From contig NC_092373.1 in assembly GCF_030028105.1 (NCBI RefSeq), positions 174,445,556 through 174,509,555 on the forward strand: a stretch of DNA of 64,000 nucleotides, written 5' to 3'. This DNA is from Mobula birostris (lineage: Eukaryota). Position numbers and translations under genes: made by a program. Shown piece by piece: positions 5,085 through 38,900 of the stretch. The notes under the pieces were generated by a model that saw only the letters and a program-made list of their open reading frames with translations, ran no database searches and was not told the DNA's origin. Within the stretch, counting starts at the first letter, position 1; each line of letters begins with the position of its first letter.

Positions 5085-5207
5085 CACAAGACACAGGAGC
5101 AGAATTAGGCCATATGGCCCATCAAGTCTGCTTCACTATTTGATCATGGCTGATTTATTTTCCCTCACAACTCTATTCTTCTGTATTCTCACCGTAATCT
5201 TTGACAC
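5085..5207 (-). mobile_element. CR1 3' end, left half; target of LTR element A (resumes at 12065)
   Basis: ggagcagaattaggccat...tttgacac joins seamlessly to cctgactaatcaagaacc at 12070. Compare the intact CR1 3' end at 49923-50070. Confidence 0.75.
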
Positions 5208-5323
5208 TGTAGTGATATCACGTGCAATGATGTGCCAGTACATGATTGAACAGAGCACTGAGCATGCACGGGATTGCCAGAATGTTCCAGCACGTGGCTG
5301 GGTTAAGGCGTGTTTGTTTATTA

Positions 5324-8300
5324 TGTAAGGGGGTTTCGTCTTTTACTGCGTAGGCTAATTAAAATGGCTTCTTTGTTATGTTATATTTGGGAATGCTTCT
5401 TTGTTATGTTAAATGCTGAGAAAGTCCTCCCGCTAGCAGTTTGTTGAATCGCGTTATCGATAAGATGTTATGAACCAACTGGGATAGTTGTTACGTTTTT
5501 GGTGTATCTGTAAGATTTGTATGCGTGGGGTTTTGGGGGGAGAAGGCGGGAGAGAGAGAGAGACAGAGGATGGACCAGGTGCTGTGATGTCCGCTAACAG
5601 GGTTGGACCCCAAGGAGAGTGTTCGGCAAGGAGACAGAGATGGACTCGTGTGGAGCGCCAGGTCAACCACCGTTGTTGGTCCTAGGCGGCCGGTCGAGGT
5701 GGTCTGAGGGGTCGCAGGGTGAAGAAGAGAGTCCTGAGCTCCAACTGTTTGTGCACGAAGAGATTGAACTTTGATAAGTGTGGCGCCTTTTATTTTCCTT
5801 TTATATTTTATTCTCTCTTAATTATATAGTTCCAGTCATATCTATAAACTGTATATCATTTAATCATATCTGGTGTACTGTCTGTTATTTGGGCAGGGTG
5901 GGGTACATCACACAGCATCCACACAAACTATTACCCAGTTTGGGGGGACCGAGGGCTGTTTCCCTAGACGACAGCGAGCCGAGCGACCCTGAGGGTGGCC
6001 GGGGGGCTACATTGTGGGGCCTTTCGTCCAGAATTGGATCTACTGGTACGCTGTGTGGTTGCCCTTTTTAAATCAGTAATGTGTGTCCCTGTGGGTTATT
6101 TGCTAGTTATTGCTGTATGCATGGTGGGTGAGGTCTTTGTTCGAGTTCAGACTAGCATTGACGAGCTGGAGGTGGAACTCGGCGCTGTCCATGCTGTTGG
6201 GAGAGAGAGGAAAGAGTGGTCTGATTCGGAGGTAGGGTCTGCGAATAAATGTTCTAGCTCTGGCAGGCTCCGCCTGGTACTTGGGATAGTGTCCACCCCA
6301 AGAGGGGCGGAGGCGTGCGAGACGAGGGCGGAGCGGATCTCTCAGTTGTTAGATGAGTGGCAGTGCTCGGTTGAGGGAGAGCGACAGGGATTGGTTGAAA
6401 GTTTAAGTAGGTGGGCTGGTGACGGTGTTAGAGCTGTCAGGTTCACTTACACCGTAGTGACAGCTGTCAGTTATTTGAACGAGGGGGGAAAGTTTTCAGT
6501 GTGTCTTCTCTGGCTAGGATGGAGGCTAAATTGCTTGCAGTGCCAGGGGGATCATTTCAGGGGATCAGCCCCTCCTTCAGTTGTTCAGCTGATCAGAGAG
6601 GTGTCAGGAAACTCAGTGGAGGCCCAGTGGGGGAACGGCTTGGGGTCTCTGGGGAAGCACGTTCCCAGCAATGTACCAATGAACTTCTGCAAGGAAAAGA
6701 CCCTATTCCTGAAGGCTTGGAGGGACCACGTCCCAGGGTGTCGTTATGGATTGAGGAAAGTGACGCTAAAGCCATCCTCGACCCCGGGGCGCAGGTCAAG
6801 TTGTTGTACAGTTCATTTTACAACCAGTATCCGAAGCATTAACCCTTGACAACCCCAAGGGCACCAGAGATTTTAGGTACCAGTGCCAGTAGTTATCCAG
6901 AAGACGATGATTGGTTAATGACCCTGGAGTTCATGGGGGCATTGTCTGGGCACCCAGCATGTCGAGTTGCTTCTGAGGACGTGTGTAGCAGCCTTGAGCC
7001 AGTACCGAATTTAAGCGAGACCCAGCAGTGGTACAGCCTGGGGAAAGTAGCTGAGGGTGAGACCCTCTTAGTAGATGCTCCGAACTACCACGAGGGAGGG
7101 GAGTTGACCGCTGAAGACACCTCAGTGAGAGAGAGGTCGCGGCAACTGGACCCTGGCGCCGTGGAAGATGTAGGCAGTGGGTGTGTGGATTATGCAACGT
7201 GGTTTAATGTGCTAGATCTGAGGGGTGGATGTTGCCAGATCCCGAGGAGTGCGGCTGTTGAGCCGAAGGCGGCCGTTATTAGTTCCCTAGGATTCTTCTG
7301 AGCCAAAAAGATGCCCAAGGGCATATCCGGAGCCCCTGCATCCTTCCCGCGGGGCATGAGGAAGACCATGGGGGAAGTGAAGGTGTGTGGAGTTTTGACG
7401 TATGTGGATGACCGCCTAGAGCTTGGATTCGCCTGGGGGGACTATGAAGCGAGGCGAGTGGCTGAGCCTGGGCGACAGAAGCGAAGTGTCAAATGTGGAG
7501 GAGTTTTTGGCCAGAGGAGTTTGGTGCAATGTGAGAAAATTGACCCGACATACCAGTTGAACTTCCTGGTGTTGGAACAGACAGTGGTGGACCTGGGGAT
7601 GGAAACCCAGGTCGTCAATCTGAATGAGACACAGGAGAGAGAGGGGATTTCCACCGTTGAACTGAGTGCTCAGAAATGCCGGCCAGAGACTGAGTGCTGC
7701 ACTTGTGGGACGACCATTGCAGACTTAGAATTCACGCTCGTCAACGTGGAGAAGGAGCAACGGAATTCCAAGCCAACACTGCGGTCATGTACTGATGAAT
7801 TAATCCAGCGAGAAGAAACAATGACCCACCTTCGAAGGGATCAGCAGAAACTCAAGACATCAATTCAGAAAAGATTGGAAGACTTACAAGTTGGAGAAGA
7901 TCAAGGAAGTGTTCTGACTAAGGCCAACCGAAAACCGAGAGCCCAGGGAGGGGAGTTTGACTACACTCCCGAGGAGGTGAAGAAATGGAGGACAGATCTC
8001 GGAAAAGGGAGGCGGACGCTTGAAAGGAACCTGAAGATGACCATCAAGAGTTTAAATGAAGGGGAAAATCTGAAAGTTGACCGGGAAGACATCATCAGGA
8101 AGTAAAAACTGGAGGCTGAACATCCTTTAACTGCTGCTTTTCAGGTCAGGATGGAAGAAGCTGGTGGGGTAGATGCGTCCCAGATTGAGATGGCCAAGAA
8201 CCCTGAGTCAGAACTGCTGAGGCTGTGGCGAGGGTTGAAGGAGTCCCCGAAGAAGCTGACGTCCCGACTGCAGGAGGCTGAAGGGATAGCCCCGGCTAAA

Positions 8301-9536
8301 TGTTTCAGTTTGGAGAAACTTAAACAGCAGCTACCGATCGAGGGAATGAGGAAGAATACGGATTCGAAGGATGGTGTGCTGCACATGCTGCCTATGTGGT
8401 ACATGCTGCCTTTCGCTAACTTCCCTGTGATTGAGGAAGAGACCTTTGGTCCTTCTCCCACTGAGTCAGGTGTAGTGGAGAGGGCTAGCTGTGGGCAGTC
8501 TGAGTTACGGCAGGATCAGGAAGGAAAAGAAGTGGGGCCCCGGTCACGGGACAGGGGGCTCTGAGCTGTAATGGTGGCCTGAGTGAGAGAGGAGTTGGCA
8601 AGCAGGCCTGAGGTATCCCTAGTAGTGTCAGAGCCTTTTGGGTTTAGGTGAGGGGGTACGGAGGTCTCGGAGGGTTAAGAAGCTCCCAGATAGGTTGGCC
8701 TATGTAGCGCCCGTGGGACAGGCGTAAGGTCCACTGTTTGGGGAGCACTGTCGCTGTGTGTATCTGTGTATGTGTGTGTTGTGTGTCTGCAGGACTGGCT
8801 GGCGAGTTATTTAGAAGTCATGAGGACATGACTTTATTTGGTGGGGGCAGAGTGTAAGGGGGTTTCGTCTTTTACTGTGTAGGCCAATTAAAATGGCTTC
8901 TTTGTTATGTTATACTTGGGAATGCTTCTATGTTATGTTAAATGCTGAGAAAGTCCTTCCGCTAGCAGTTTGCTGAATCAGGTTACTGATAAGAAGATGT
9001 TATGTATGAACCAACTGGGATAGTCGTTATGTTTTTGGTGTATCTGTAAGATTTGTATGCGCGGCATTTTGGGGAGAGAAGGTGGGAGAGAGAGACAGAG
9101 GATGGACCAGGTGCTGTGATGTCCACTAACGGGATCGGACCCCGAGGAGGGCGTTCGGCAAGGAGACAGAGACGGACTCATGTGGAGCGCCTGGTCGACC
9201 ACCGTTGTTGGTCCCAGGCGGCCGGTCGAGGTGGTCCGAGGGGTCGCAGGGTGAAGAAGAAGGGTCCTGAGCTCCAACTGTTTGTGCACGAAGAGATTGA
9301 ACTTTGAAAAGTGTGGCACCTTTTATTTTCCTTTTCTATTTTATTCTCTCTTAATTATATAGTTCCAGTAATATCTATAAACTGTAAATCATTTAATCGT
9401 ACTGTCTGTTATTTGGGCGGGGTGGAGTACATCACACAGCATCCACACAAACTAATTACCCACTTTGGCGGGGCCAAGGGCTGTTTCCGTAGACGACAGC
9501 AAGCTGAGCGACCCTGAGGTTAGCCGGGGGGCTACA
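5324..9536 (+). mobile_element. LTR element B: non-autonomous Gypsy with PNMA-like gag, inserted in the 5' LTR of element A
   Basis: LTRs 5324-6011 and 8853-9536 (TGTAAGGGGG...GGCTACA); TSD ATTA at 5320-5323 and 9537-9540. Degenerate tRNA-Pro-like PBS after 6011; purine tract before 8853. Gag QLLDEWQCS...LVESL, protease [11 protein letters not shown] remnants VLDLRGG / MPKGISGAPASF / YVDD. Confidence 0.92.
7521..8342 (+). pseudogene. Captured sarcomeric myosin heavy chain rod fragments (MYH16-like) inside element B
   Basis: [71 protein letters not shown] and [11 protein letters not shown]...[13 protein letters not shown] match recalled myosin II rod motifs (IDDLELTLAKVEKE, LDDLQAEEDKVNTLTK, RLEEAGGATSAQIEM, KKLAQRLQEAE...AKCASLEKTKQRL). 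Confidence 0.85.
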
Positions 9537-10245
9537 ATTACTGTAAATAAAAGTTCTCTAATTCTTTCAGAATATGATTCTTTACTGTTAACTCACGGTA
9601 TGTTTAAACAGAAGTAACATAACATGGTGTCAGAAAGCGTAGGAGAACATGCGAGTTTGGATTGCTCACAGACTCTCTCATTAAAGATAGATTTGTTTGT
9701 GGCATTCGAGATAATGCTTTGAGAGAAAGGCTGTTGAGAGAGCAAGATTTAAATTTTGAAAAAGCTCTGGCGCTTTGCAAAGTTTCTGAGACTGTGACGT
9801 TGCAGACTGAAGAGCTTTTTATCGAAAACTGCAATGTAAACGCTGTAAAAAAAGCGCAAATACATCAAAAAATATAATAATACGTTGACAAAGCCAACAG
9901 AGAACAAGATGGCATTGGAAAGAAAAAAGTCATGTGATCGCTGTGCGCGGGAACATCGTCCAAATCAGTGTCCCACATACAGCAAAATTTGCAATGGCTG
10001 CGTTAAGATTAATCATTTTTCACGCTGTTGTTAAAGTAGAAAGAAGGAAAATAAAATGAAACAAGTAAATACTATGCTTGAAGATGAACGTGAGGAATTT
10101 TACATAGATGTGCTTTATGAAAGTAAACAAAGTAAGAATGACTGGACTATTCCGTTGCAAGTGAATCAAAACAATATTCTGTTTAAATTTGATACTGGAG
10201 AGCAAGTAAATGTTCTTGCAGAATCTGAGTTTAATGCTTTAAAGC

Positions 10246-11078
10246 TGTGACAACAAACCAAGTTATCGGAAGATTGATGCTAATGAGAAAGAGATAAGGG
10301 AGACAATGGAGGAACGTTCAAAATGTTAATGAGAGAGAAGAGAGAGATAACGGAAAAGAAACACAGTTCAGAATATTGACAGACCGGTTGCTTTGAACCT
10401 GAACTGTTTGAAGTTTGATGGACAGGCGATACCCCGGCAGGGGGATAAAAAGAACAGGTTCGCTAAGGCACGACACACACCACGAGATCACGAGATAATG
10501 AGACCCTGGAAGAGCGGTGTGCCCCCACAAGTTGGTGGGAGCTTGGAGGTCTGATCGCGGGAACCGACCATAGACGCACAGGGTGAAAAAGGTACGATCG
10601 GTGGGAACCTGGTGTGTGTGTCCGGCCTTGCCTGGGTGCCGGGTTCACCGCGGAAGAATGGTTGTATCCGGAACGGAGGGGTCTCAGTCAGTGACCACAG
10701 AAGACATAAAAAAGGGTCCGCCCGAAAGCCAACTGTGAAGAACATCAAAGGTCTGTCTGAATCAAAATTTGCATTCTCTCTCTCTCCAACGGCACAACAG
10801 CGATTACTGCGAACTGTACTAAGCTGAACTGAACTCTGCGTCACTTAAGACTGATCATTTTACCCCTAGACTGCGATAGAGCTTGGTTGATTCCTGTTAC
10901 CCTAGTTCTGTGTACACGTGTGTATTATCATTGCTAACCTGCTGCATTTATATCCTTACGATTAGAGTACTGTGTTACTTACTTCTTTAATAAAACTTTA
11001 TTAGTTTCTGTTAAACCAGACTCCAACTAAGTGGTCCATTTCTGCTGGTTTGGCAACCCAGTTACGGGATACGTAACA
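10246..11078 (+). mobile_element. Solo LTR (element C, 833 bp) inserted in the protease region of element A
   Basis: TGTGAC...GTAACA termini; TSD AAGC at 10242-10245 and 11079-11082; AATAAA near 10989. Removing it restores EFNALKPRPKLHQT. Confidence 0.85.
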
Positions 11079-11276
11079 AAGCCAAGACCAAAGTTACATC
11101 AGACAAATATAAAAGGTATTCAGGTGCAGACATCGTGGCCAAGGTATCACACAAAAATATTGTGCATACGCTTTCATTTGTGGTCGTACCAAAAAAATGT
11201 ACAATCAATTCTGGGTTTATCTGCCTGTGAAAGTCTTAATTTGGCGAAAAGAATTTTTGTCTTGGATAGTGACACA

Positions 11277-11491
11277 GAGCTGAAGCGACAGAATGTTGCA
11301 CTACAGTCGGCAGAAGGTGATGTAACTCGACTGCAGGTCCAGCTCAAGGAGGCAATTATGATATGAAAAAGCAATGGCAGGAGGAGGTTGCTTCAATGCA
11401 AGCAATAATGAAAGAGACACTGAGAGAATACAAGATTCAGTTTCATCACTGTCTAGAGCAAGAACGCTCACAGTGGGCACAGTATAAGGAA
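11277..11491 (+). pseudogene. RABEP1: Captured Rabaptin-5 N-terminal coiled-coil fragment inside element A (resumes 11621-11665)
   Basis: ELKRQNVALQSAEGDVTRLQVQL..EAI..MKKQWQEEVASMQAIMKETLREYKIQFHHCLEQERSQWAQYKE versus recalled human DLKRQNAVLQAAQDDLGHLRTQL...EAIDEVKRQWREEVASLQAVMKETVRDYEHQFHLRLEQERTQWAQYRE. Confidence 0.9.
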
Positions 11492-11620
11492 GAAGTGAAA
11501 GCACGAGTGAAGGAATTGAGACATATTGAAATGAAGTCTCAGCATAAAAAAGAGATTACACAGTTAATGAATGAATTAGATGAAGAAAAGAAGATTTGTA
11601 TTTCATTACGCATGGAAGTG
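11489..11620 (+). pseudogene. SH3KBP1: Captured CIN85 C-terminal coiled coil inserted within the RABEP1 fragment
   Basis: [44 protein letters not shown] versus recalled human [46 protein letters not shown]. Confidence 0.85.
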
Positions 11621-11665
11621 CAATGTGAATCAACTGATCTAAGGAGACGTTTGTCTGAAGGACAA
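11621..11665 (+). pseudogene. RABEP1: Second RABEP1 fragment
   Basis: QCESTDLRRRLSEGQ versus recalled human EREIADLRRRLSEGQ; followed in frame by an integrase C-terminal-like tail GDKVRIQ...RSYMIQTEEGAVLRKNRK. Confidence 0.85.
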
Positions 11666-12064
11666 GGAGACAAAGTGAGGATACAAGATAAAAGGAACAC
11701 ATGGACACAGACCAGATCATACATGATCCAGACAGAGGAGGGAGCGGTGTTAAGAAAGAATCGCAAAGGCTTTAAGAAAGAGCCAACTTCAGAGTTTCAG
11801 TTATCTGATATAGATGAGTTTTGATTAACATTGTTAATTGTTTTTCTTTTTAAGGAAAGATAGATGTGGTGATATCACGTGCAATGATGTGCCAGTACAT
11901 GATTGGATAGAGCACTGAGCATACGCGGGATTGCCAGAATGTTCCAGCACGTGGCTGGGTTAAGACGTGTTTGTTTATTACCGTAAATAAAAGTTCTCTA
12001 ATTCTTCCAGAATATGATTCATTACTGTTAACTCAAGGTATGTTTAAACAGAAGTAACATAACA

Positions 12065-12485
12065 GACACCCTGACTAATCAAGAACCAATCAACCGCTGC
12101 TTTAATGACTTGGCCTTCACAGTTATCTGTGGCAATGAATTCCACAGACTTACCACCTTCTGACTAAAGTAATTCTTCCTCATCTCTGTTCTACATGGAC
12201 ATCCTTCTATTCTGAGGCTGTGCCCTGTTGACCTGGACGCTCCCACTATTTGAAACATCCTCTCCACGTCCACTCTATCTAGGTCTTTCACTATTCTGTG
12301 GTTTTCAATGAGATCCTCCCTCAGTCTTTTAAACTCCAGTGAATACAGGCTTAGAGCTATAAAACACTCATCATACATTAACCCTTTCATTCACGGGATC
12401 ATTGTTGTAAAACTCCTCTGGACCCTCTCCAATGCCAGCACATCTCATAGATAAGGGGCTCAAAACTACCCACAATACTCTAAAT
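12065..12485 (-). mobile_element. CR1 3' fragment, right half (continuation of 5085-5207)
   Basis: ORF 12079-12390 LYSLEFKRLREDLIE...RGHS-like...FSQKVVSLWNSLP is the CR1 ORF2 C-terminus. Confidence 0.8.
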
Positions 12486-35923: not shown

Positions 35924-38900
35924 TGTGGTGGCCTGCACACGCGGGACTCGAACCGGCATCGGGAGCCACGGGCAGACACGCGGTAGCGCGTTTGGAACTA
36001 CCCGCTCAGGGCGGACCTTCTGGGGACAGTCTGACATCATGTCCGACCATGTCCACCATCAATAATGGTGTTTCTATTACCAAAGATGGGGCTCAGGCAT
36101 GTGCCGCTGCCGCCCACCATGTGCTTTTCTGGGAAACGCTGGGGCCAGCCGTCGCTAATGGTTATGATGGCTGGCCACTGAGACAGCCTCCTGTACCTCT
36201 GGAACCGACACTCCAGGCAGTGCTTCCTGGTAGACACTGGGGCCGAAGTCAGCGTACTACCCCCCTCGAACATGGACACTCGTAATGCGGTTCCAGGCCC
36301 CGAACTCACCGCTGCAAATGGCACCAGTATTCAGACGTACGGCCCGTGAACTATCTCACTGCATTTCAGGTCCAGCCGTTTCACTTGGACTTTCCCGTTG
36401 GCAGTGGTGTCACAGCCACTACTAGGGGCAGATTTCCTACGAGCCAACTGCCTCCTGGTCGACCTAAAAAGCCGGCGTTTGGCCAACACTGAGATGTTCC
36501 AGACTTTACAGCTCAAGAAGCCAAGCTGCTGGCCCTCCACCTGGATTCCATGACCCCCTCAGGTAATGAATTCACCAGGGTGTTAGTGGAATTCCCCTCC
36601 ATAGTCACCCTGCAGTTCTCCATGGCCAACCCCAAGCACGGCGTGCAGCACCACATCCCCACGCAAGGACTGCTGCTACACGCCCGAGCTCACAGGCTCC
36701 CACCCGACAAGCTCCACCTCGCCAAGGAGGAGTTCCGTAAGATGGAAGAGATGGGAATCGTACGCCGCTCAGACAGCCCGTGGGTATCCCCGCTGCACAT
36801 GGTGCCCAAGTCCTCAGGAGGATGGAGGCCCTGCAGAGACAACAGAAGGCTCAATGATGCCACAACCGCCGACAGATTCCCGGTACCCCACATCCAGGAC
36901 TTCATGGCAAACCTGCATGGAGCGACCATCTTCTCGAAAATCGACCTTGTCAGGGGATACCATCAGATCCCAGTGCACCCCGACGACGTGCCCAAGACAG
37001 CCCTCATCACCCCGTTTGGTTTGTTCGAATTCCTGAGGATGCCTTTCGTTCTCAAGAATGCAGCCCAAACTTTCCAAAGGCTCATGGACTCGGTGGGACG
37101 CGGTTTGGATTTCGTTTTCATTTACTTGGACGATATCCTGGTGGCCAGCAGTTCGCACCAAGAGCACGTGGCACATTTGCGCCAGCTCTGCCAATGCCTG
37201 AGCGACCATGGACTGGCAATCAATCTGGCGAAGTGCCAGTTTGGGCTGACGGAGATCGACTCCTTGGGCCACAGAGTCAACCGACATGGCGCAGTTCCCC
37301 TACCGGACAAGGTCCAGGCCATCCGCCAGTTCCCCAAGCCCAGCACGGTCAAGGGCCTGCAGGAGTTCCTAGGGATGGTCAACTTTTATAATCGGTTCGT
37401 GCCTGTGGCGGCACGCATCATGAGACCCTTGTTCAGCCTGATGGCCGGCGAGGCCAAAGAAGTGGCATGGGGCGCAGAGTCCACGGAGGCGTTCGAGCAG
37501 GCCAAGGAGGCGCTGGCAAAGGCAGCCCTCCTAGTGGAGGGACACGGAGTCCACGGAGGCGTTCGAGCAGGCCAAGGAGGTGCTGACAAAGGCGCCCTCC
37601 TAGTGCACCTGAGAGTCGACGTATCCACGGCACTCACAGTCGACACTTCCGACACGGCAGACGGCGGAGTCCTGGAGCAGCTTGTCGAGGACCAGTGGCG
37701 ACCACTCGCTTTCTTCAGCCGGCACCTACGGCCACCGGAGGTGAAGTACAGTGCTTTTGACAGAGAGTTGCTAGCACTCTACCTGGCTGTCCGGCATTTC
37801 CGGTACTTCCTCAGGGGAAGGGAGTTCACCGTGTATACGGACCACAAGCCCCTCACCTTCGCACTGGCCAAGGTATCGGACCCATGGTCGGCTCGGCAGC
37901 AGAGGCACCTGTCCTTTATTTCAGAATTCACCACGGACGTCCGCCACATCGCAGGGAAGAACAACGTCGTCGCCGACACACTGTCTCGCCCCTGCCTCCA
38001 CTCAGTAGGCATATCGTCCTCAGGAATAGACTACGCAGCACTGGCGGAAGCACAACGGTCAGACACCGAGATCCCGGCTTACCGCACCACCGTTTTAGGG
38101 CTCCATTCGGAGGACGTCCATCAGCCTGACAGCGGATCGACTCCTGTGCGACGTGTCTACCAGCAAACCCCGACCCATGGTACCAGCAGCACGGAGGCGC
38201 CAGGTGTTCGACATGCTGCACGACCTGGCCCACCCGTCCATCCATCAACCTGGTAGCAGACAGATTCGTCCGGCACGGTTTGCAAAAACAGGTCGGACAC
38301 TGGGCCAGGACCTGCGTACACTGCCAGACCGCCAAAGTCAGCGGCACGTGAAGGCTCCCCTCCAGCAGTTCCAGCTGACGCACAGGAGGTTCCAACACAT
38401 CCACGTGGACATCGTCGGACCCCTGCCAGTCTCCTGGGGCGCCAGGTATACCTTTACCATTGTAGGCAGGTTCACCAGATGGCCGGAAGCCGTACTGCTC
38501 GCAGACATGTCCACTGAGTCCTGTGCCAGGATGCTCATTGCAAACTGGATCGCCAGGTTCGGCCTCCCAATGGACATCACCTACTACAGAGGGGTGCAGT
38601 TCATGTCGGGTTTGTGCACAGCACTGGCACAGCTCCTGGGCACCCAGCTGCATCACACCACAGCGTACCATCCCCAGTCCAACGGTTTGGTAGAGGGATT
38701 CCACCGGCATCTCAAGTCGGCCCTGATGGCACGTCTCAGGGGCCCCAACTGGGCAGATGAGCTTCCCTGGGTCCTACTGGGCATCCACACAGCCCCCAAG
38801 GAGGACCTGGACACCTCAGCAGAATTGGTCTACGGTGCCCCCCTGACGGTCCCAGGCGAGTTCGTACCAGAGGCCCGAGGTTCGGAAGAAACTCCAGCAG

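What the first reader, a model, noticed from the sequence alone, without database searches (positions are those of the whole stretch)
5208..12064. Two unrelated nested Gypsy elements each replaced part of pol with in-frame host coiled-coil cargo
Seen: elements A and B have different LTRs, PBS types, TSD lengths (5 vs 4 bp) and gag families. Both keep gag/protease remnants and an integrase-tail-like end, but lack RNase H and the integrase core. In their place sit fragments recognised from three host proteins (RABEP1, SH3KBP1/CIN85, myosin heavy chain). Every captured piece is coiled coil, and the capture and deletion junctions keep the pol frame. Known: LTR elements can capture mRNA by template switching during reverse transcription. 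Inference: repeated coiled-coil capture with frame preservation suggests selection on a Gag-Pol/coiled-coil fusion in the master elements. Possible roles are co-assembly into helper particles or an oligomerisation/trafficking module. A neutral alternative is selection only for an open, stop-poor transcript. I do not know of a description of this in cartilaginous fish.
Basis: partly seen in the sequence, partly recalled or inferred. Interest (0 to 1): 0.88.

Follow-up and report, generated by a model that had tools for sequence, protein, structure and literature searches.

The report
Ray retrotransposons carrying in-frame host cargo
Two kinds of broken jumping genes in a ray swapped their own enzyme genes for pieces of three host messenger RNAs and spread to hundreds of places, keeping one long reading frame open while the protein sequence drifts, which likely means the RNA has to be read by ribosomes to be copied rather than that the borrowed protein pieces do a job.

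Summary
Confirmed, and much larger than this window. A and B are old copies of two multi-copy non-autonomous Gypsy groups in a myliobatiform ray (486 and 1094 search candidates). Spliced pieces of RABEP1, SH3KBP1 and a MYH16-type myosin replace RT-RNase H-integrase, joined at short shared sequences where checked. Sister families carry RABEP1 alone, SH3KBP1 alone or other myosin deletions; named proteins from Hypanus, Hemitrygon and Mobula show the same chimeras. The frame is kept: 13 of 13 multi-copy joins in A's group; 713 codons without a shared stop in B, with about 11 breaks expected between B and a sister family. The amino acids are not clearly kept: dN/dS between myosin-cargo families (0.5-1.1) matches the neutral baseline, and B's coiled coil is eroding. 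Best reading: selection for a translated, stop-free RNA, as in mouse IAP I-delta-1, with cargo as in-frame filler (0.55). A coiled-coil role stays open (0.27): in a pooled tail-anchored sample all 26 shortened elements carry cargo, and A's group is too little diverged to test. B's gag is out of frame with its long frame, which is unexplained. No description found in 9 literature searches; the scan's look-ups showed no earlier report of these families.

The parts
5208..5323 (+). Element A 5' LTR, left part (5-bp TSD at 5203-5207 and 12065-12069)
5324..6011 (+). Element B 5' LTR (4-bp TSD); LTR pair distance 0.074
6079..6720 (+). B first frame: PNMA-type gag N-half from a shared ATG; 235 codons without a shared stop in 17 copies
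6432..8564 (+). B long frame (713 codons without a shared stop): degenerate protease, RT stub, myosin cargo, integrase tail; this copy has its own stops near 6840, 7300 and 8104
7570..8335 (+). Spliced, internally deleted rod fragments of a MYH16-type myosin heavy chain
8346..8852 (+). B integrase-tail region, 3' untranslated part and purine tract; 73-77% identical to full-length B-type elements
8853..9536 (+). Element B 3' LTR
9537..9624 (+). Element A 5' LTR, right part
9625..10245 (+). A primer site, K02A2.6-type gag with zinc knuckle, protease start; this copy lacks about 430 nt of gag held by sister copies
10246..11078 (+). Element C solo LTR, private insertion in A's protease (4-bp TSD)
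11083..11282 (+). A protease, second half
11276..11500 (+). RABEP1 cargo, first part, spanning a host exon joint; this copy has a private 64-nt loss here
11489..11623 (+). SH3KBP1/CIN85 C-terminal coiled coil, spanning two host exon joints, inserted in frame into the RABEP1 cargo
11624..11670 (+). RABEP1 cargo, second part
11671..11824 (+). A integrase C-terminal tail, ending at the family-wide stop
11865..12064 (+). Element A 3' LTR; LTR pair distance 0.052

Best explanation
These are non-autonomous Gypsy families in which spliced host mRNA pieces, likely gained by template switching, replace RT-RNase H-integrase, and whose source elements kept one long reading frame open while its amino acids drifted, likely because the RNA has to be translated to near its 3' end to be stable and copied by full-length helper elements, with the cargo serving mainly as in-frame filler. 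Shown: multi-copy families, intron-free cargo, short shared sequences at the joins examined, full-length relatives (same LTR and same age for A and S, a more distant relative for B), frame kept far beyond chance, neutral-like dN/dS and coiled-coil erosion in the myosin group. Inferred: template switching in the particle, helper-dependent copying, and the reason for the open frame (escape from nonsense-mediated decay or co-translational entry into particles, as reported for mouse IAP I-delta-1). Purine-rich coiled-coil mRNA would be favoured partly because it offers more, and more in-frame, short matches to purine-rich element RNA.
For: Frame: 13 of 13 joins seen in two or more copies of the A/S/R group are in frame in most copies, against 6 of 10 single-copy joins. 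The share of in-frame short matches is about 0.3-0.6 in most classes, giving 1e-4 at 0.5 and 1e-3 at 0.6 (my arithmetic). Stretches without a shared stop: A 626 codons in 17 copies, B 713 in 17, M3 686 in 5, M2 619 in 4. B copies gained 2.5 stops and 2.6 frameshifts each at private dN about 0.032, so 11 breaks are expected on the B-M3 path (P 1e-5; stops alone 4e-3) and 9 on the M6-B cargo path (P 1e-4). Protein: net dN/dS in cargo 0.50-1.08 and 0.62-0.96 against a within-family baseline of 0.40-0.64; RT stub, protease region and tail alike. Control: full-length parents 0.18 in gag-protease. Proline 0.2% to 2.9-3.5%, glycine 3.2% to 5.7-6.6%; crude heptad share 0.83 to 0.37. Amplified subfamilies lacking the protease exist (R4 5 copies, A' 2 copies). 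11 of 41 SH3KBP1-cargo loci show a 1-nt loss or an alignment end at the same spot near the end of the cargo, where a shift moves the stop little. Precedent: IAP I-delta-1 cis effect (passage of PMC6466679); decay of retroviral RNA with early stops (abstract of PMC2925335).
Against: No cargo-free derivative among 26 shortened elements in the pooled S-type tail sample of 48 loci, although a plain in-frame deletion should serve as well. Only single cargo-free deletions were seen, in two other samples (L298 of 30; L223 of 30). Three unrelated donors all include coiled coil. SH3KBP1 cargo was trimmed from its 5' side to nt 310-331, just before the coiled coil, and not into it in element-joined copies. 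Hints of constraint: young versus old B cargo 0.32 [0.13-0.90] and gag 0.42 [0.19-0.96]; gag M1-M3 0.26, P 0.02; host exon versus B 0.30, P 0.054. In B the first frame stops early and is offset from the long frame, so how ribosomes enter the long frame is unknown. M1 is unresolved at a variable G run. The break expectation assumes that source lineages mutate like inserted copies. Translation itself was not shown.
Confidence: 0.55

Rival explanations
1. The captured coiled coil is used as protein: fused behind Gag or Gag-protease it would replace the dimer contacts of the lost RT-integrase and help the element's own product, and its RNA, join helper particles; in the old myosin group the constraint would be weak or since relaxed.
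For: 26 of 26 shortened elements carry cargo in the pooled S-type tail sample, and 27 of 30 loci in the M-type tail sample (the other 3 are tail fragments only). Trimming of SH3KBP1 stops at the start of the coiled coil in L197, L204 and L214; under even spacing of 7 ends this has P about 0.05 (my arithmetic). A took the SH3KBP1 coiled coil alone (nt 333-474) into RABEP1 cargo. A's cargo keeps its heptad pattern (0.84). A leucine zipper behind HIV-1 protease raises Gag-protease multimerisation and cleavage (abstract of PMC3291649). Weak constraint in young B.
Against: Neutral-like dN/dS and proline/glycine gain in the myosin group. A versus R cargo net dN 0.009, dS 0.002, so no sign of constraint, at low power. 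B's gag is out of frame with the cargo. The coiled coil lies next to the fixed 3' join, so its retention may be positional. In the HIV study the zipper reduced particle yield.
Confidence: 0.27
2. The cargo acts as RNA: purine-rich, GAA-rich stretches would aid export, stability or packaging of the unspliced element RNA, and the open frame is a second, separate need.
For: Purine share of the cargo 0.64-0.69 against 0.55-0.57 for the parents' internal region and 0.56 for the trimmed proline-rich part. It would explain both the lack of cargo-free derivatives and the free amino-acid drift. That SR proteins bind such stretches is recalled, not tested.
Against: Synonymous sites are not held either (net dS 0.10-0.32 between myosin families). 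No motif test was run.
Confidence: 0.1
3. Chance and founder effects: a few captures happened to be in frame, short size let them spread, and the open frames reflect their start state and the in-frame bias of short matches.
For: In the A/S/R group the sources are almost identical to host and parents (net dN up to 0.013 between subfamilies), so little time passed. In-frame short matches reach 0.5-0.9 for some long classes. The finding was noticed because it was in frame.
Against: It cannot explain the myosin group, where sources diverged by dN 0.09-0.18 with no shared stop. R and S joins were found by searches blind to the frame of the join.
Confidence: 0.08

Closest known systems
LTR-mediated retrocopies in animals (Tan et al. 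2016, PMC5131818; passages read)
   Same: Part of the internal ORF replaced by mRNA; short shared sequence at joins (median 6 bp there); chimeras of several genes; further retroposition; the longest ORF in frame with the parent gene in 14 of 17 young Drosophila cases.
   Different: Here the chimeras became large families with many subfamilies, the cargo is in the element's own pol frame, and the frame is held over long divergence without amino-acid constraint.
Mouse IAP I-delta-1 (passage of review PMC6466679; Saito et al. 2008 itself was not held)
   Same: Non-autonomous element with a deletion that yields one gag-pol fusion frame, reported to act in cis and to outrun full-length copies.
   Different: I-delta-1 is a plain deletion in a retrovirus-like element with no host cargo. 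The cis effect was shown by experiment there and is only inferred here.
CrocERV29 (KIT ligand) and CrocERV31 (nectin3) host captures (PMC4299795; passages read)
   Same: Multi-copy endogenous elements of a vertebrate carrying a captured host mRNA with open frames.
   Different: Those are retroviruses with near-whole host ORFs, one in place of env, under purifying selection. Here fragments replace pol in Gypsy elements and drift.
Maize Bs1 (seen only as a passage in PMC5131818)
   Same: LTR element with pieces of three host genes.
   Different: Plant; one of its three pieces is out of frame; no coiled-coil theme known to me.
Extra ORF3s of bdelloid rotifer LTR elements (PMC5408684; passages read)
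   Same: Gypsy-like elements with added coding sequence, some with coiled coils.
   Different: Separate third ORFs in complete elements, mostly env-like or enzymes exchanged among retroelements, not host fragments in place of pol.

Membership tests
Ty3/Gypsy LTR retrotransposon (non-autonomous derivative) | Paired TG...CA LTRs with target-site duplication | tested here: met
Ty3/Gypsy LTR retrotransposon (non-autonomous derivative) | Parent with gag-protease-RT-RNase H-integrase order | tested here: met
   P0114 domain order matched by genomic copies; A-type and S-type LTR parents; B-type parent
Ty3/Gypsy LTR retrotransposon (non-autonomous derivative) | Placement in a named clade by RT tree; primer tRNA identity | not tested
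   Labels K02A2.6-type and PNMA-type come from record names and Pfam; the primer sites differ but were not matched to tRNAs
LTR-mediated retrocopy (Tan et al. 2016) | Cargo lacks host introns | tested here: met
   RABEP1 one joint, SH3KBP1 up to three, MYH16-type one
LTR-mediated retrocopy (Tan et al. 2016) | Short shared sequence at the joins; internal ORF replaced, not interrupted | tested here: met
   4, 4 and 7 nt at three A joins; parent and cargo alignments overlap at the S and R joins; B capture joins not resolved
LTR-mediated retrocopy (Tan et al. 2016) | Further retroposition of the chimera | tested here: met
   40 of 40 scored loci for each cargo; LTR pair distances 0.001-0.13 in A and B copies
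LTR-mediated retrocopy (Tan et al. 2016) | Sense transcription from the LTR | tested here: inconclusive
   Only contigs of runs not on record as RNA were available
IAP I-delta-1-like cis-translation element (works-like comparison) | One fused open frame across the deletion | tested here: inconclusive
   Met for A (626 codons) and for B's long frame; not met for B's gag-to-long-frame join
IAP I-delta-1-like cis-translation element (works-like comparison) | Translation raises copying in cis | not testable with these tools
   Inferred from purged stops
Functional captured host gene (CrocERV29/31 kind) | Purifying selection on the captured ORF | tested here: not met
   Myosin group at the neutral baseline; RABEP1 and SH3KBP1 groups lack power

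The most novel reading that the evidence does not exclude
Defective Gypsy elements in rays repeatedly hijacked host coiled coils (RABEP1, the CIN85 C-terminal coil, myosin rod) as plug-in oligomerisation modules that replace RT-integrase, swapped and stacked them between LTR subfamilies by recombination, and thereby came to match or outnumber their helpers: a retrotransposon parallel of gag-oncogene fusions, selected for parasitism of particles.
Probability: 0.25. Interest if true: 0.88.

Novelty: new variant of a known kind. Interest (0 to 1): 0.7.

Why it matters
It gives a natural, many-times replicated test of what a defective LTR element must keep in order to spread. Hundreds of copies in more than ten subfamilies separate selection on the reading frame from selection on the protein, a distinction I know to have been shown by experiment only for mouse IAP. 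It also matters for annotation: these elements are listed in public ray gene sets as RABEP1-like, myosin-like, MYH16 and TMEM192 isoforms, which can inflate gene-family counts. B-type copies with LTR pairs 0.1-0.4% apart show that the process is recent.

Tried and rejected
Cargo private to this copy: rejected. Chance coiled-coil likeness: rejected, since cargo is 89-98% identical to host exons at DNA level in the A/S/R group. Skeletal myosin cluster as donor: rejected for a MYH16-type gene; the dN/dS against skeletal myosin is therefore not used. dN/dS of RABEP1 or SH3KBP1 cargo against the host: the low values are not evidence, because the shared synonymous distance is the same for all subfamilies and zero between them, so it most likely lies on the host side. 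RNA: no RNA holder listed; four contig sets laid on one B-type copy cover it but cannot show strand, level or splicing, and no joint recurred between runs. Meaning of the nesting of B in A: treated as chance in a repeat-rich genome; A's LTR distance (0.052) is below B's (0.074), within the noise of 200 bp. In one search, 6 of 12 A loci were left out because the primer motif was not matched; one search used 17 other-cut copies. The A-type tail sample disfavours family A, which lacks part of the query, so it says nothing on A's share. The search of 1.84 billion representatives listed only three chimeras among the best 150, all named from stingrays. No structure or complex prediction was run. Literature: 9 searches gave no description in rays. 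PMC5131818, PMC5408684, PMC4299795, PMC6466679, PMC10924933 and bioRxiv 2025.06.08.657570 were read as passages, PMC3291649 and PMC2925335 as abstracts. No supplements were seen; repeat libraries in supplements or Repbase/Dfam could hold these families.
Full report
1. What is in the window. The nested anatomy is as reported. B sits in A's 5' LTR and a solo LTR (C) sits in A's protease. A has 200-bp LTRs, a 5-bp duplication and a K02A2.6-type gag with an aspartyl protease. B has LTRs of about 685 bp, a 4-bp duplication, a PNMA-type gag and an RT stub. The cargo matches Rabaptin (E 8e-23), the SH3KBP1 C-terminal coiled coil and the myosin rod. Both window copies are broken. The host is a myliobatiform ray, judged from its SH3KBP1 exons, which match the named Mobula protein best.

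2. Both are large families. A's cargo gave 486 candidates and B's 1094; all 40 scored loci matched in each. LTR pair distances are 0.04-0.13 in 22 A and B copies. A set of 12 B copies chosen for long open stretches has 0.001-0.027 in 11 and 0.064 in one short alignment, so B was copied over a long span and recently. Full-length relatives of similar age exist with A's LTR (L132, L137) and with a sister LTR (L128). B's full-length relatives are 73-77% alike in the tail. Public gene sets hold the same chimeras for Hypanus and Hemitrygon (P0005-P0007; P0112) and for Hypanus and Mobula. The Hemitrygon element P0007 carries SH3KBP1 residues that match Mobula rather than the Hemitrygon host protein, so that capture likely preceded their split.

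3. The cargo came from spliced mRNA. Host exons were located for RABEP1, SH3KBP1 and a MYH16-type gene (only two exons found in 60 kb). The cargo runs across exon joints without introns. Three joins of A lie at 4, 4 and 7 shared bases. This fits template switching as described by Tan et al. (passages).

4. A radiation of cargo families. Family S carries the last 125-145 codons of SH3KBP1, including its proline-rich linker. Family R carries RABEP1 without the SH3KBP1 insert (35 of 40 scored candidates; 20 fetched). A has R's cargo with the SH3KBP1 coiled coil placed inside it, on a different LTR type. Cargo differs by net dS of at most 0.004 between these families, while gag-protease differs by dS 0.24-0.33 between A and the S and R families. 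Cargo was therefore likely passed between LTR subfamilies by recombination. The myosin cargo occurs in B, young B and M1-M6, about 15% apart, with different deletions. In two tail-anchored samples pooled (48 distinct loci, 12 duplicates removed, both query loci included), 22 have integrase upstream, 23 SH3KBP1 cargo and 3 RABEP1 cargo; none joins gag-protease straight to the tail. Two of the 26 cargo loci (L189, L364) are cut upstream by other sequence. Single cargo-free deletions were seen in two other samples of 30.

5. The frame is kept. Joins seen in two or more copies and in frame in most of them: R1 10 of 11, R4 3 of 5, RABEP1-tail 16 of 16, A 5' 25 of 28, A' 2 of 2, S1 5 of 5, S2 8 of 10, S3 3 of 3, S-tail 15 of 20, S4 2 of 2, the two SH3KBP1-insert joins and A's 27-nt tail deletion. 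That is 13 of 13. Single-copy joins: 6 of 10. Short exact matches between real element and host sequences are in frame in about 0.3-0.6 of cases (0.17-0.89 in the small classes of 8 nt or more). Stretches without a stop shared by most copies are 626 codons for A, 713 for B, 686 for M3 and 619 for M2; M1 gave 288 plus 459, split at a variable G run where copies fall in all three frames. From the private break rate of B copies, 11 breaks are expected between the B and M3 sources and 9 between M6 and B in the cargo; none is shared in B or M3. M6 was not surveyed for shared stops. Exception: in B the gag N-half is offset from the long frame (modal state in 9 of 17 old and 6 of 12 young copies), and B has an in-frame ATG at 6918 (17 of 17 and 11 of 12; 1 of 14 in M1). 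In young B the part of the long frame upstream of that ATG has gained a shared stop, and two family-level deletions of 12 and 120 nt are in frame.

6. The protein is not clearly kept. Distances between family sources were taken as the mean between-family distance minus half the within-family distances. The method detects constraint where expected: 0.18 for full-length parents. Within families the ratio is mostly 0.4-0.9, the baseline for unconstrained decay with this estimator. Between myosin-cargo families it is 0.50-1.08 in cargo, 0.41-0.82 in the RT stub, 0.93-1.64 in the protease region and 0.39-1.69 in the tail, and 0.62-0.96 against M6. None is below baseline at P 0.05. Prolines rise from 0.2% (M6) to 2.9-3.5% (B) and a crude heptad score falls from 0.83 (one M6 copy) to a mean of 0.37 (30 B copies). 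Results against this reading: young versus old B 0.32 in cargo and 0.42 in gag, with intervals just under 1, and gag M1-M3 0.26, among several dozen comparisons. For RABEP1 and SH3KBP1 the sources are nearly identical to each other, so there is no power.

7. Mechanism. Shown: capture of spliced fragments, spread, purged stops and frameshifts, free amino-acid change in the old group. Inferred: copying by helpers and a need for translation of the element's own RNA. IAP I-delta-1 is reported to depend on its fusion frame in cis (review passage), and early stops expose unspliced retroviral RNA to decay (abstract). The recurring 1-nt loss near the end of the SH3KBP1 cargo (11 of 41 loci) fits a need to reach the 3' end rather than a need for the integrase tail; it fits a coiled-coil role as well. 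What the frame-only reading leaves unexplained is why shortened elements nearly always hold cargo, and why all three donors give coiled coil. A protein role (0.27) or a purine-rich RNA role (0.10; purine share 0.64-0.69 against 0.55-0.57) may add to it, above all in the A/S/R group.

8. Novelty. Capture by LTR elements and cis-acting fusion frames are each known. I found no account of multi-family, in-frame coiled-coil cargo in rays in 9 searches, and the scan's own look-ups by sequence were blank. Verdict: real, a new variant of a known kind, interest 0.7.

Noticed in passing
L174, L179, L180, L183 and further hits on contig C17: One damaged RABEP1-cargo element, with the same inner insertions, recurs at a dozen or more places on a single chromosome, apparently carried inside a larger repeated unit.
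   Followed up: partly
L322; G000:C28 18.08-18.14 Mb: Only two exons of the MYH16-type donor were found in 60 kb, and the Narcine proteins are short (225-234 aa); the gene may be truncated or have very long introns in rays.
   Followed up: partly
G000:C16:85153809, C17:52869143, C9:73021819, C8:50532253, C6:2100758: Long, apparently intron-free myosin-tail fragments with stops, probably processed pseudogenes or further cargo.
   Followed up: no
L098: An S-family element is nested inside a full-length B-type element, the reverse of the window's nesting; a second short LTR-like insertion lies in the same element.
   Followed up: partly
window 36673-37494: RT and RNase H region of another Gypsy-like element (RVT_1 E 5e-29).
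   Followed up: no
window 10246-11078; L018, L025: Element C's LTR occurs beside two other A copies; its family was not examined.
   Followed up: no
P0112, P0258-P0271, P0005-P0007: Public ray gene models named TMEM192 isoform, MYH16, myosin heavy chain-like or RABEP1-like are copies of these elements.
   Followed up: partly
window about 6482-6495: A G-GGA-AAG heptamer in B's first frame lies in the overlap with the long frame; its likeness to a -1 frameshift site is recalled and untested, and the overlap is lost in young B.
   Followed up: no
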